DNA from: Chiloscyllium plagiosum
Taxonomy: Eukaryota
Assembly: GCF_004010195.1 (NCBI RefSeq)
Contig: NC_057718.1
Location: 98,208,876 to 98,272,875, forward strand
Length of the DNA: 64,000 nt
Direction: 5' to 3'
This document shows, one piece after another, positions 891 through 59,100 of the stretch. The position numbers and the translations under genes are program-made. Within the stretch, counting starts at the first letter, position 1. Every line of letters starts with the position of its first letter. The notes below the pieces were generated by a model, which was given only the letters and a program-made list of their open reading frames with translations, was not told the origin of the DNA and ran no database searches.

Positions 891-985
891 GGGATGAAGG
901 GCTTTTGTCCGAAACGTCGATTTCGCTGCTCCTTGGATGCTGCCTGAACTGCTGTGCTCTTCCAGCACCACTAATCCAGAAAGTG
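891..985 (+). mobile_element. Penelope-like terminal repeat fragment with a 5'-truncated hammerhead motif
   Basis: GATGA-A-GGGC-TTTT-GTCC-GAAACGTCGA followed by ggatgctgcctgaactgctgtgctcttccagc; same family at 7778, 26071 and 57331. Confidence 0.65.
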
Positions 986-1279
986 TCTGGAAATGTTAAC
1001 CTTATCAAGGACAACATATGATATTTGTAACTGCAACAAAAAATATGCCTTTGTAATTTGAGCTGTTTTTATTGTTGGATCATACAACATAGGCATCTCT
1101 AGTGCCCACATTTATTGTATTCAGGAGATGATGGTAACCTACCTGCTCAAACCATTGACGTCTATCTGGTGTAGATGCATCCACATGCTGTTTTGAATTT
1201 ATAAGAAAAGGAAGTGGTTAATCTCTCAAGCCTGTTCCGTCATTCAGTGAGATCATGGCTGATCAATAGCCTCAGAGGC

Positions 1280-53100: not shown

Positions 53101-56100
53101 TTTTATGGACTTTGGCTCCTTCCCTCCCATTGTCATGATGATAAAGTTGAGTATGAGATTATCAATGAATACAGGCCGTGCTGCTATAACGCCACAGTTG
53201 TGTTCTTCTGCAACCTCGCACAAGAGCAAATCACGTTATGGGAAACCGTTATCGAAAATTGCGCTGTAGAAAATCGCTAAGAGAAAGTTCGATATGCTCG
53301 TTCAGTTGAAAGTTTGTGTTATCCAAACAGCGTCTACAATTCGTCAGTCACGTCAGAGCTAATTCGAGTTGACGAAACGCATGTTATAGCAGAACGACCT
53401 GTACTTGGACCAGATGACAATGGTGTGTTAAGAAGCCATAGTCCATAAAGGACCATGGACAGCTCCTTGCATTCCTCCAATTCATTAAGTATACTCTGCC
53501 TATGTGGGTTAAAGGTGAGGAGACAGGTCCTCCGGGAGCTACCACAACCAGTACAAGGATTGATCTCATGCGTTTGGCTTTATTCTACACTACAATCTAG
53601 TCAACTGAGCTAACCCACCTCCTGGCTAATAGAGAAGATTAAATATGTTGCAAATTTGTGATATATCTGGTCCTAAATTCTCCCGCAAGTGCAAGCAACT
53701 TCTCTGCATCTACCCTGTCAATTCCCTTATGAACCTTATAAGGTGTAGGGACAGAGGTAGACCATTTAATCCATTAAACCTGCTCCACCATTCACTGAGA
53801 TCATGGCTGATCTGATAATCCTCAACTCCATTTTCCTGCCTTTTCCCCATAACCTTTGTTTCCCTTACTGATTAAAAATGTGTCTATCATAACCTTGAGT
53901 ATTCTCAATGATCTAGCCTCGACAGCCCTCTACGATGAAGAATTCCACAGATTCACTCCCCTCTGAGAGAAGAAATCATTCCTCACCTCTGCCTTAAATA
54001 TGCAACCCCCAATTCTAAGATTATGCCCTCTGCTACTAGACTCACCCACAAATGCAAGCAACCTCTCTGCACCTACCCTGTCAAGTCCACTATGAATCTT
54101 ATATATGGTCTTCGCATTCTATGACTACAGGATTATCCTACTCAAACTCTCCTCATATGGTAGTCCCTCCATACCAGGGATCAGCCTTGTGAACATTCTA
54201 TGGAGTTTCTCACAGAACCGTACACAATGCCAGTGTATGAACATGCAAGCAATAGTTTGTTTCAGAATCCATATAATGTTGATCATAAACTTAACTGGCT
54301 TTCTGTCATCTGTGGTGTCGTCCCTCAGTGAACACAAAGTAGTGCCAGTGGAGCGTGTCGTACTGCTTACTCATAGTTCCATGAAAGCAGTTCCCCATGT
54401 CATACTCCACTAACATTATAATTACAATACATGATAATTAAAGAGGCACCAATGGACTCCACAGACAATGTGCGGCAATGGCCATTAGAGGAATTCACAG
54501 ATCCTGTGGAGTCTCCCCAGCTCCTGGTGTAGTCAATGATAAGTGGATGTAGCCAGTGTTTAAATCTGAATTAAATAAGTGGATGGAATTTCTTGGTGCA
54601 ACAAAATCTCAGCTGCTGATAGTTTGCGCTCAGGGATGACAGTAGTGGAATAGTAATTCAGTAGTCCGATAATTCCCAATACCCTTCAGATGCAGTGTAT
54701 TGCAAATCCCGGCAGCACGGTGGCACAGTGGTTAGCACTGCTGCCTCACAGCGCCAGAGACCCGGGTTCAATTCCCGACTCAGGCGACTGACTGTGTGGA
54801 GTTTGCACATTCTCCCCGTGTCTGCGTGGGTTTCCTCCGGGTGCTCCGGTTTCCTCCCACAGTCCAAAGATGTGCAGGTCAGGTGAATTGGCCATGCTAA
54901 ATTGCCCGTAGTGTTAGGTAAGGGGTAAATGTAGAGGCATGAGTGGGTTGTGCTTCGGTGGGTCGGTGTGGACTTGTTGGGCCGAAGGGCCTGTTTCCAC
55001 ACTGTAAGTAATCTAATCTAATCTAATCACTATGTCACCTGATGGAGTTAATTAATAAAATCAGAGTTTGAAAGTTTGTCTTATCAATGGTGACTGTAAA
55101 ACCATAGTCTAAAAAATGACCCAGTTCCTGCACTTATTTGGAAATCTACTGTCCTGGCTTATGTGTAACTCCAAATCCACAGAAATGTGGTAAATGTATT
55201 GTGAAATGGCCTAACAAACCAAGGGTAAGAAAAATGTTCCCCAAATGCTGGTCTGGACCACATCCCATGAAAGAATAAAACATTGCACCAAGAAATGTCA
55301 TCCACTTATTCAATTCAGATTTAAACACCGCCTACATACACTTATCATTTGATCATTTACAGGAGAACAAGCAGTTCAGCTTAGTATACACGTTCCTTTG
55401 ACAAACTGTGTGAAGTTTGGGGCAAGGTTCTGGCTTGTATAGTGGATGTTAATTAATGAATATCTGTGTAAAAATCCCATGTAGCTTTGTGAAACTACTC
55501 CCTGAAATTATGTGGTAAATTAACAAATACAACATTGCTAATATTATAAATTGCAACTTTTGAATTTATGCCCTTGCAGATATGTTGTTTACCAACGTGC
55601 AACATAAAACCATAAGATATAGAAAAAGAATTAGGCCATTCGACCCATCGAGTCTGTCCCACAATTTAATCATGGCTGATATGTTTCTCAACTCTAATCT
55701 CCCCATAACCATTGATCCCCTGACTAATCAAGAAATATCCATCTTTGTCTTAAAGGCACTCAATGACTTGGCCTCCACAGCGTCCTGTGGCAATGTGTTC
55801 CGCAGATTCACCCCCCCCTCTGGCTGAAGAAATTCTTCCTCATCTCAGTTCTAAAAGGTTGGCCCTTCACTCTGAGATTGTGCCCTCAGGTCCTAGTCTC
55901 TCATCCTAGTGGAAACATCTTCACGTCCACTCTATCCAGGCATTTCAGTATTCTGGAAAGTTTCAATCAGATTCCCCCTTCATCCTTCTAATCTCCATTG
56001 AGTACAGACGCAGAGTCCTCAACTGCTCTTTATACAACAAGGACTTCATCCCTGGGATCATTCTTGTGAACCTCCTCTGGACTCCCTCTAAGGCCAACAC

Positions 56101-59100
56101 ATCCTTCCTTAGATATGGGGCCCAAAACTGCTCACAATGTTTCAGATATAGTCTGACCAGAGTCTTAGACAATTTCAGCAATGCATCTGTGCTCTTGTAT
56201 TCTAGTTCTTTTGAAATGAAAGCTAATGTTGCAATGACCTTCTTAACTGACAGCTAAATTGTATGTTAGCCTTAAGAGAATCCTGAACTAGGAGTCCTAA
56301 ATCCCTTTGTACTCAAGATTTCTAAAGCCATTCCCCGTTTAGAAAATAGTCTGTGCCTCTTTTTCCTCCCAAAGGGCATAACCACACACTTCCCCACATT
56401 GTATTCCATCTGCCACTCTTTTGCTCACTCTCCAAGTCTGTGCAAGTCTTTCTGCAACCTCCCTATTTCCTCAACACTACCTGTCCCTGCACCTATCTCT
56501 GTGTTATCTGCAAACCTAGCAGCAATGCCCTGAGTTCCTTCTTCCAGATCTTTATTGTATAACATGAATCGTTGTGGTCCCAACAATGACTCCTGCTGAA
56601 CTCCACTAGTCACTGGCTGCTATCCTGAAGAGACCACTTTGTTACAACTCTCTGCCTTCTGTCAGTCAGCCAACCCTCTATACATGCCAGTACCTTGCCC
56701 CTAACACCATAGGCTGTTACTCATTTAGTAGCCTCCTATGCAATACCTTGTTAAAGATCTTCTCGAAATCCAAGTAGATCCATTGACTATCCTTTGTCAA
56801 ACTTGCTCATTACCTACTCAAGGATTTGTCAGGCATGACCGCACCTTGATGAAACCTTGCTGACACAAACCTATTTTCCCACGCACTTCCAAGTCCTCCC
56901 CAATTTCATCCTTAATGATAAACTCTAAAATTGTACCAATGACTGAGGTTAGGGTAACTGGCCTACCATTTTCAATCTTTTACTCTCTCTCTGCTGTAAT
57001 AAATTAGCCATTTCTAGTCCTCTGGGATCCTCCCTGACTCCAGTGATTCCTGAATGGTCATCATCAAAGCCATGACAATCTCCTCAGCTATCTCCTTCAG
57101 AGCTCTGGGTGTAGCATATCTAGGCCACCCTAGATGGATTTCTCCACCTTCAGACCTTGCAGTTTACCCAGCTCCTTCTCCTTAGCCATGACCTCTGTCC
57201 CCTGACTCTCTTGAAGTTCTGGTATGCTGCTGGTGCCTTCCACCATGAAAACTGATGGAAAGTGCCAACTCAGTTCCTCCTCCATTTCTTTGTTCTCCGT
57301 GACTATTTCTCTGGCCTCATTTTCCAGCAGGAAAATTGACGTTTCGGGCAGGAGCCCTTCACCAGGAATCAGGCCCGAAATGTCGATTTTCCTGTTCCCC
57401 GGATGCTGCCTGACCTGCTGTGCTTTTCCAGCACCACTGTAATCTTGACTCTAATCTCCAGCACCTGCAGTGCTCACTATCGCCTCATTTTCCAGCAGCC
57501 CAGTGACTCTCTTACCTTTTACAGATCTAACGGAACACTTTGGGAATTTGAGCAGAACACTAGGTGGGCCCCACAAAACGTTACTTTTATTAAGGTCCAT
57601 TAGAACCACTTAACATACATCCTGATGGCAAACATTCTGCTCAAGAAAGCAATTTCACGAACAGGGTATTGGTTCCCAATGGAGGGAATAGCCTCATGAC
57701 TCATCTGTACAAGCACAGTTGCACAGTTGCAAGCCTGCACAGTTAGTTGACAAATTGGAATTCACACCTGTCAGGCTTCGTTTCGACCTGAGCTGGAACA
57801 TTACCCCAAACGCTATCTACTTTCTCTCCACAGATGCTGCCAGACCTGCTGAGTTCCTCCAGCAATTTCTGTTTCTGTTTCAGATTTCCAGCATCCGCCA
57901 TTCTTGTGTTTACTTCATTTTACTCACCCGATTATATTGAGCTGCTGCCTCCCAGTCGATCTACAGCAGTCCTGGCATTTAACATTCAGGTTGCATCCTA
58001 CAAATGTTAAGTGTGAAAATATTTCAATCTTTTATAAATTTTCTCATGATCTTTTAGTACCATGCAACAGGTTACCCTGCTCTGTCGTAATGCCCGGCTG
58101 CAAATCACTGCAATTCATCCTCAGAAATGCTTTTTGCATTGATTTTAAAACTTGTCTTTCAATTCTTTACTGACAGCGAGAGGTGTGGCCAAGTTAACTC
58201 ACACATTGCTGCAAGAGCAGTGTGTTCATTGAGTAGCTGCTCGTGAACTGAATTGCTCCATCTGGTGGTGGCATTGCTCATAAACATAGCTCTTTATAAA
58301 ATCTACATAAAACTTAGATCCTATGCTTTAAAATTGTGATTGACCAAAATGCCCAAGTGCCACTTCCATGGAACAAACATTGCAGGAATGGGCATATTCC
58401 ATGGTGTATTTGACAATCTATTTCATTGTGTGACAATACTTTGGCTTTAAGAGGTGTTTTTTTTTTCCTTTATTTTAAATGAAGAGAAGTTGAGGCAGAG
58501 ATACCAACAGTCTGCTCAAAGCCAATAAAGTAAACAGCTTGTGAGGCCATTTTTTTAAAAGTTAGAACAATAGAAGCAGCCTGAATGAGTGGGATCAAGC
58601 TCCCACAAAATCCGTATTTTTCATTTAACTTTCAGCAGTTACTGAGGTCTTAAAGCTGGATGTGGAAGCTTCTGTTACCCTCTCTGTTACAGTTAAAAGC
58701 TGGGGTTCTCTTCCTGCTGCTAGAATTGCATGTGAGACAAGCTATTTTACTGAATTTGCCTTTGCCAAGGGTGTGTTATGGGATATTATTTTATTGGAAC
58801 AATTAATTATTAGTGGTACATATATTTTATATATACATATATATATTATATATATATATATATAGTTTTGATAAGCACTTCTATAGAGTTACAGTTAGGC
58901 CAATTCTTTTGTTTTTGTTTTTATTTTAATTGTAGTGTAAACATATATATGGGATATGTGGGGTTACAGGGATAGGTAGTACAGATGAATCTGGGTGGAA
59001 TGCTCTTTGGAGAGATGGTGTGGACTCGATGGGCCAAATGGCCTGCTTCCACACGATGATGATTTCTAATGTAACAATATGGTTTTGTACTTGGCCACTT

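What the first reader, a model, noticed from the sequence alone, without database searches (positions are those of the whole stretch)
891..57481. Several distinct repeat families share one hammerhead architecture with covarying stem II
Seen: the pattern CTGANGA + one extra nt + stem II + GAAA + short palindrome recurs with different stem II sequences: GGGC/GCCC (891, 26078, 57340 minus), GGCTC/GAGCC (4490 minus), GGAGC/GCTCT or GCCCC (10686 plus, 10373 minus), GTTAC/GTGAT (24197) and GAGTC/GACTC (47385). Pairing is kept while sequence changes, which supports a real RNA structure. Most copies have a core substitution or truncation. Inference: many short shark repeats may be ribozyme-bearing Penelope terminal repeats or non-autonomous retrozyme-like elements, implying a very large genome-wide hammerhead count.
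Basis: partly seen in the sequence, partly recalled or inferred. Interest (0 to 1): 0.72.

Follow-up and report, generated by a model that had tools for sequence, protein, structure and literature searches.

The report
Shark Penelope ends carrying minimal hammerheads
These short repeats are mostly broken end pieces of several Penelope-type jumping genes that carry an already described, stripped-down hammerhead ribozyme motif; what stands out is the number (over 200,000 copies with all core letters in this genome) and that many copies begin at the motif's first base, which likely marks where the jumping gene's RNA starts.

Summary
The motifs are real and belong to a known kind: the minimal type-I hammerhead of Penelope-like element (PLE) terminal repeats (Cervera and De la Pena 2014). 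The window holds 15 pieces of five family groups. Only 10379(-) has every core letter. 47377(+) keeps the conserved letters with a wobble in the palindrome; the others are mutated or cut short. All 9 family consensuses have intact cores, and stems I and II covary between families. Reverse-transcriptase-anchored loci carry their own family's motif about 1-1.5 kb downstream. Families A-C look Neptune-like, D Poseidon-like. The exact core pattern occurs 210,657 times genome-wide against 409 reversed controls, but few copies have perfect stems. Short copies have target-site duplications, often form head-to-head pairs, and begin at stem I's first base (30 of 84) rather than at the cut site (2 of 84). 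This fits copying of uncut RNA, likely from a pLTR start site. The retrozyme reading is not supported, and cleavage is untested. The scan noted this before on other DNA (390 notes, at least 33 genomes).

The parts
891..981 (+). Family A1 (Neptune-like) stub: minimal hammerhead lacking its first two core letters, plus tail
   Evidence: 96.6% to the A1 consensus from position +2
4399..4516 (-). Family B1 arm of a head-to-head pair; motif starts at 4513 with a mutated first box and palindrome
4530..4588 (+). Family B1 tail-only partner arm
7778..7833 (-). Family A3 tail-only stub, 100% to consensus, no motif
10243..10538 (-). Family C (Neptune-like) pLTR arm with the full tail; motif at 10379-10351 has the exact core and one A-C mismatch in stem II
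10566..10769 (+). Family C partner arm; motif at 10686 has U4>G; short tail; an 8-nt word is shared by the two flanks of the pair
   Evidence: (I2)
12977..13057 (-). Family B1 tail-only stub
14677..14775 (-). Family B1 stub from the GAAA box onward
23627..23989 (-). Family D (Poseidon-like) arm: GIY-YIG C-terminal coding remnant, decayed motif at 23735, full tail
   Evidence: 87.7% over 375 nt to the long D reference; the translation shows the endonuclease end
23988..24271 (+). Family D partner arm; motif at 24197-24230 has G8>A; short tail; the pair is flanked by a 9-nt duplication
26075..26201 (+). Family A short copy starting 3 nt before the core; GAAA box and palindrome mutated
47372..47473 (+). 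Family B2 short copy starting at stem I; motif at 47377-47406 keeps all conserved core letters with perfect 5-bp stems I and II, but C15.2>U
57326..57369 (-). Family A arm; motif at 57365 has A6>G; tail cut short
57373..57484 (+). Family A partner arm lacking the first box; the pair is flanked by a target-site duplication of at least 12 nt
57808..57905 (+). Family B1 stub from the GAAA box onward

Best explanation
The repeats are 3' terminal-repeat (pLTR) pieces of several Neptune-like and Poseidon-like Penelope retroelements, each carrying a minimal type-I hammerhead motif predicted to cut only as a dimer, and the short copies were likely pasted in by the element's own enzymes from uncut RNA that likely begins at the motif's first base. 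Shown here: the family links to RT and GIY-YIG coding sequence, intact consensus cores, covariation between families, target-site duplications, head-to-head pairs, the pile-up of 5' ends at stem I, and decay led by CpG sites. From the literature: motifs of this type lack helix III, pair through a 4-nt palindrome (ACGU or AGCU here) with a second copy, and cut weakly or with help from the element's protein. Inferred: selection kept the fold in the master elements, not in the inserted copies. The pLTR promoter starts RNA at about -4, the endonuclease nicks the target, and RT primes at one of two tail sites. RT then copies through the uncut hammerhead to the RNA's 5' end, often folding back to give inverted pairs. 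Confidence is about 0.9 for the identity and about 0.55 for the start-site reading of the 5' pile-up.
For: Linkage: 19 of 30 family-A RT loci carry the A motif downstream on the same strand (18 at 1.13-1.30 kb). So do 13 of 30 D-RT loci and 6 of 30 C-RT loci; the C motif lies near the locus edge, so C is undercounted. 5 of 30 B loci have a B-type endonuclease end upstream. Pfam finds RVT_1 in 4 of 4 RT pieces (3 over cut-off) and GIY-YIG in 1 of 2 endonuclease pieces. A C-x5-C-x2-C linker occurs in A and C loci; no such linker was seen in D. Craig 2021 passages give it as the Neptune/Nematis mark. The window's D pair itself codes for an endonuclease end. Structure: 9 of 9 consensuses have the intact core. 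Stem I pair 1 is CG, AT or TA; stem II pairs 2-4 take three or four standard pair types; 15.2-16.2 is CG or GC. CC or GG there make up only about 4,800 of 215,484 matches (minus). Ends: in 573 kb of evenly spaced genome, A-family 5' ends fall at -6..0 in 30 of 84 pieces and within 3 nt of the cut site in 2 of 84 (p=2.5e-7). RNA reads diverge at the same -4 position in two families (128 and 96 reads). The parent sequence there fits the initiator consensus YYANWYY in A1, A2 and B1 (consensus recalled). Duplications of at least 8 nt flank 17 of 65 non-inverted short young copies against 2 of 119 controls. A-family 3' ends cluster at about +80-92 and +120, like the PLE tail. In the anole PLE, uncut RNA is the dominant substrate and no reads end at the cut site (PMC11167929).
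Against: No cleavage was tested. The most abundant families (A1, A2) have only two contiguous pairs and then a U-U mismatch in stem I. For them the predicted hammerhead fold is 2-6 kcal/mol above the minimum-energy fold, so they may cut poorly or not at all. No extra 5' G, which a capped RNA would leave, was evident: G stood at -5 in 9 of 31 A1/A2 short copies, and at the first differing base after a 4-nt match in 4 of 7 A2 and 0 of 5 A1 copies. The 5' edge is spread over 2-5 nt. C lacks a clean initiator match, and D shows no 5' pile-up (6 of 8 extend beyond -40). No full-length intact element was seen; 10 of the 20 long loci had N stretches over 1.4 kb. Clade labels rest on motifs, not on a tree.
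Confidence: 0.85

Rival explanations
1. Same elements, but the 5' pile-up comes from RT stalling or switching template at the folded hammerhead within a longer RNA, not from a transcription start.
For: No clear cap-derived G. The edge is spread over 2-5 nt. 54 of 119 short young copies are fold-back pairs joined near the motif, which shows template switching there.
Against: Stem I is weak in A1 and A2, the families with the strongest pile-up. RT would be expected to stall at the 3' foot of a structure, not after passing through it (inference). The initiator-like context sits exactly at -4 in A1, A2 and B1.
Confidence: 0.3
2. The conserved motif no longer cuts in the dominant families and is kept as a protein-binding or downstream-promoter element.
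For: U-U mismatch in stem I of A1 and A2. No RNA ends at the cut site in one single-cell run, though that library is poorly suited to show them. In the anole PLE, cleavage is dispensable for insertion in vitro. Drosophila Penelope has a downstream promoter element containing ACGT (PMC2377424 passage).
Against: All catalytic letters, the non-G at position 17 and the palindrome are kept in 9 of 9 families of two clades. The palindrome swaps CG to GC in family C, which keeps dimer pairing but not an ACGT element.
Confidence: 0.15
3. The short repeats are non-autonomous retrozymes that spread through circular RNAs made by double self-cleavage.
For: They are short, non-coding and bear a hammerhead. 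Animal retrozymes derive from PLE pLTRs and occur in one cartilaginous fish (bioRxiv 10.64898/2026.07.22.740005).
Against: None of the 9 tandem rows in the window covers a motif. Same-strand neighbours number 5 against 34 head-to-head pairs among 150 pieces, and only 2 of 84 5' ends lie at the cut site. Long copies continue into endonuclease coding sequence.
Confidence: 0.05
4. The resemblance is chance, multiplied by repeat copying, with no selected RNA structure.
For: The window alone is within the range of controls. Single-copy fold z-scores are -2.65 to +0.17. Copies of a family are not independent.
Against: Nine families in two clades keep the core while both stems and the palindrome change in compensating ways. 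The motif sits where the same motif is published for PLEs.
Confidence: 0.02

Closest known systems
Minimal hammerheads (min-HHR) in pLTRs of metazoan Penelope-like elements (Cervera and De la Pena 2014, PMC4209133; parts 1-2 of 4 read, supplements not seen)
   Same: [quoted passage not shown]
   Different: Sharks are not named in the parts read. The exact-core count here is 210,657, against about 9,000 in Xenopus and 4,000 in coelacanth, but those counts required paired stems, so they are not like for like. Stem II is shorter here in A (4 bp), and stem I is mismatched in A1 and A2. A 5' pile-up at stem I is not described in the parts read.
Poseidon element of Anolis carolinensis (PAc; Frangieh et al. 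2024, PMC11167929; parts 1-2 of 4 read)
   Same: Hammerhead in the pLTR, two 3' ends giving a tail on one side, uncut RNA as template, no reads ending at the cut site.
   Different: PAc was shown to cut only with its protein; nothing was assayed here. Most copies here are Neptune-like.
Animal non-LTR retrozymes (bioRxiv 10.64898/2026.07.22.740005; parts 1-3 of 5 read, supplements closed)
   Same: Non-coding, derived from PLE pLTRs, type I hammerhead.
   Different: Retrozymes are defined there as tandem repeats with a hammerhead in consecutive units. These copies are dispersed monomers and inverted pairs.

Membership tests
PLE minimal hammerhead (min-HHR) | Conserved core CUGANGA / GAAA / U16.1-H17 in family consensus | tested here: met
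   9 of 9 consensuses
PLE minimal hammerhead (min-HHR) | No helix III; palindromic positions 15.2-16.2 | tested here: met
   CG or GC in 9 of 9; CC/GG about 2% of strong-strong matches genome-wide
PLE minimal hammerhead (min-HHR) | Extra nucleotide between 9 and 10.1, and G10.1-C11.1 | tested here: met
   A or U inserted in 9 of 9; first stem II pair is G-C or G-U in 231 of 242 copies; the scan required the extra base
PLE minimal hammerhead (min-HHR) | Helix II with compensatory changes | tested here: met
   228-232 of 242 copies paired at each of 4 positions, with 3-4 pair types at positions 2-4; copies were selected for at least 3 of 4 pairs, so only the variety of pair types is informative
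PLE minimal hammerhead (min-HHR) | Short helix I (4-5 bp) | tested here: inconclusive
   4-5 bp in A3, B1, B2, C2; 3 bp in C1, D, E; 2 bp, U-U, then 1 bp in A1 and A2
PLE minimal hammerhead (min-HHR) | Location in the pLTR of an RT plus GIY-YIG element | tested here: met
PLE minimal hammerhead (min-HHR) | Self-cleavage as a dimer | not testable with these tools
   needs an in vitro assay
Neptune clade (families A, B, C) | CX2-5CxxC linker between RT and endonuclease | tested here: met
   seen in A loci (L089, L099) and C loci (L106, L107, L110, L114, L116); for B only the endonuclease end was seen
Neptune / Poseidon clades | RT phylogeny with reference elements | not tested
   no reference PLE proteins were fetched; no tree was built
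Non-LTR retrozyme | Tandem units each with a hammerhead | tested here: not met
   5 same-strand neighbours among 150 pieces; no arrays in the window
Non-LTR retrozyme | Circular RNA joined at the cut site | tested here: inconclusive
   no such joint or end in one polyA single-cell run, a library unlikely to hold circles

The most novel reading that the evidence does not exclude
Shark Neptune elements start their RNA on the first base of the hammerhead, so the uncut ribozyme is the RNA's 5' leader and promoter in one. Short read-through-free RNAs of about 90-125 nt are pasted as a SINE-like class, which has seeded over 200,000 intact-core hammerheads, the largest load in the papers read. Because any two copies with the same palindrome can pair in trans, sense-strand intronic copies could cut host pre-mRNAs and should be depleted.
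Probability: 0.25. Interest if true: 0.6.

Novelty: new member of a known kind. Interest (0 to 1): 0.3.

Why it matters
The kind is known, and its function in Penelope elements is still open. This genome offers a very large natural sample: several young families with perfect or mismatched stem I, and hundreds of thousands of dated insertions. It can test whether cutting is needed for spread, where the RNA starts, and whether sense-strand intronic copies are selected against. The many head-to-head pairs would also form long double-stranded RNA in host transcripts.

Tried and rejected
Rfam: no hammerhead family up to E=5. Window-only enrichment: within control range. Pfam GIY-YIG search of the genome: 1 weak match among 150 scored of 14,403 candidates, uninformative. 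Full-length intact element: not found among 20 long loci, half of them with long N stretches. Cap-derived 5' G: not supported. Selective destruction of cores in copies: not seen. Non-CpG core sites differ at 18 of 510 against 69 of 1224 tail sites (p=0.07), and CpG sites at 67 of 306, in 51 A copies that span the motif. That set is biased toward good cores. Spliced-leader origin of the -4 edge: rejected, because no AG precedes it in A1 or A2 and short copies share no upstream exon. RNA: no RNA holder listed for the window stretch. Run X21 (same species label as one holder, not shown to be this species) has family reads on both strands, 86-97% running on into unlike sequence, and no pile of molecule ends. 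X22 gave no reads. These runs cannot show cleavage. Sense versus antisense intronic comparison: not run, no annotation. The host exon's identity was not confirmed by Pfam, PDB or the Atlas. Lunse et al. 2017 is not held; only its title was seen, in reference lists. Paper searches that found no shark min-HHR census. Subscription papers, Repbase and unseen supplements may list shark examples.
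Full report
Observation. Family consensuses find 15 pieces in the window. Only 10379(-) has every core letter, with one mismatch in stem II. 47377(+) keeps all conserved letters and two perfect 5-bp stems, but a C-to-U change turns its palindrome pair into a wobble. The rest are mutated or truncated. A relaxed pattern gives 9 window hits against 2-9 in 12 Markov controls, so the window alone proves little. Rfam has no matching hammerhead.

Genome. The exact core with an ACGU palindrome occurs 162,517 times (reversed control 360), and with AGCU 48,140 times (control 49). 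Non-palindromic CC or GG versions number about 4,800 (minus these). Family patterns give 18,271 (A), 1,363 (B) and 19,448 (D and E). These patterns do not test pairing. In 60 evenly spaced 10-kb stretches (573,435 non-N bases) there were 20 exact-core hits. All 20 had at least 3 of 4 stem II pairs, 16 had at least 3 of 4 stem I pairs, and only 2 were perfect in both. That density, 35 per Mb, is below the genome mean of 59 per Mb. The same sample held 150 family pieces, 85 spanning the motif and 20 with an exact core; this scales to roughly 0.9 million pieces, a rough figure. The published 9,000 (Xenopus) and 4,000 (coelacanth) used a paired-stem descriptor, so a strict count here could be about tenfold lower than 210,657.

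Structure. Of 318 motif-bearing copies, 242 fell into nine clusters of four or more; 76 were left out. All nine consensuses read: stem I, CUGANGA, one extra base, stem II, GAAA, two palindromic bases, U, H, stem I. There is no helix III. Stem I pair 1 is C-G, A-U or U-A, and stem II pairs 2-4 take three or four standard pair types. The palindrome is CG in families A, B, D and E and GC in family C. This matches each trait listed for PLE minimal hammerheads in PMC4209133 (parts 1-2 read). There, a single motif did not cut and dimers cut weakly. One point weighs against activity: A1 and A2, the largest families, have a U-U mismatch at the third pair of stem I.

Parent elements. I searched the genome with three RT fragments, without regard to the motif, and examined the 30 best loci of each. 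The matching family's motif lay downstream on the same strand in 19 of 30 (A), 6 of 30 (C, near the locus edge) and 13 of 30 (D). Eight D loci also had an inverted copy upstream. Pfam confirms RT and GIY-YIG. A and C carry the cysteine linker that Craig et al. give for Neptune and Nematis (passages); none was seen in D, which I read as Poseidon-like. B copies follow a Neptune-like endonuclease end in 5 of 30 loci. The window's pair at 23627-24271 contains endonuclease coding remnants, has a tail on one arm only, and is flanked by a 9-nt duplication. No full-length intact element was recovered.

How the short copies arose. In the random sample, A-family 5' ends lie at -6..0 relative to the first core base in 30 of 84 pieces, and within 3 nt of the cut site in 2 of 84; 3 of 87 pieces that began far into the tail were dropped. 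Exact matches to the parent stop mostly 2-5 nt before the core in A1, A2, B1 and C. Reads of run X21 leave the element at -4 in two families. Duplications flank 17 of 65 non-inverted short young copies against 2 of 119 controls, and 54 of 119 are fold-back pairs. 3' ends cluster at two places about 30 nt apart, as for the PLE tail (PMC11167929). The templates were therefore uncut RNAs, as found for the anole element. The parent sequence at -4 fits the initiator consensus (recalled) in A1, A2 and B1, and Drosophila Penelope has an internal pLTR promoter (passages). A start site is thus my preferred reading, and I took that lead from earlier scan notes. I could not confirm their cap-derived G, and D shows no pile-up. 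RT stalling or template switching remains a serious rival. Inserted copies decay mainly at CpG sites (22%), with no excess loss at other core sites (3.5% against 5.6% in the tail).

Verdict. This is a new member set of a known kind. The Penelope reading and the large count are confirmed, the retrozyme reading is not, and cleavage is untested. Seven paper searches found no shark census and no description of the stem-I pile-up. Lunse et al. 2017 and the supplements of the 2014 paper and 2026 preprint were not seen and may cover them. PMC6155905, PMC6765202 and PMC8455134 were seen as passages only. The scan has reported the same thing many times, including twice in this genome among the eight notes listed. 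Interest 0.30.

Noticed in passing
window 47741-47832 (+): An exon-shaped open stretch between AG and GT, about 335 nt after the 47377 motif, which would make that copy sense-strand intronic.
   Followed up: partly
window 10478-10587: The centre of the family C inverted pair scores as Rfam MIR1319 (46 bits, gathering score 116.6). It is the fold-back junction, not a microRNA match; such pairs would form long double-stranded RNA.
   Followed up: partly
genome sample L212-L271: 34 head-to-head pairs among 150 pieces, against 1 tail-to-tail pair, implying on the order of 200,000 long inverted repeats genome-wide (extrapolated).
   Followed up: partly
tails of families A and B (e.g. window 919-981): A nested hairpin downstream of the cut site is predicted in all five A and B consensuses; it may be the RT-binding or priming signal.
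   Followed up: no
family D motif (window 24197 onward): An ATG spans the end of the first box and the extra base and appears by eye to open a short frame through the tail, similar to the anole element whose ORF begins at stem II. Coding may constrain this family's stems.
   Followed up: no
L163:7408-7814: Family E and family C motifs lie next to each other on both arms of one inverted pair, suggesting nesting or co-copying of Poseidon-like and Neptune-like ends.
   Followed up: no
L004 and L042: A different repeat carries an exact core pattern with a GC palindrome but poor stems; probably unrelated, or a chance match inside another repeat.
   Followed up: no
window 14722-15285, 17405-17791, 25323-25835: Decayed LINE-type reverse transcriptase fragments (RVT_1 at E 2.4e-15 for the first); these and related repeats make up most of the window's direct repeats.
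   Followed up: no
window 35752-36061: A near-perfect tandem duplication of 155 nt (98%); a similar 156-nt duplication lies at 316-528. Either may be recent or an assembly artefact.
   Followed up: no
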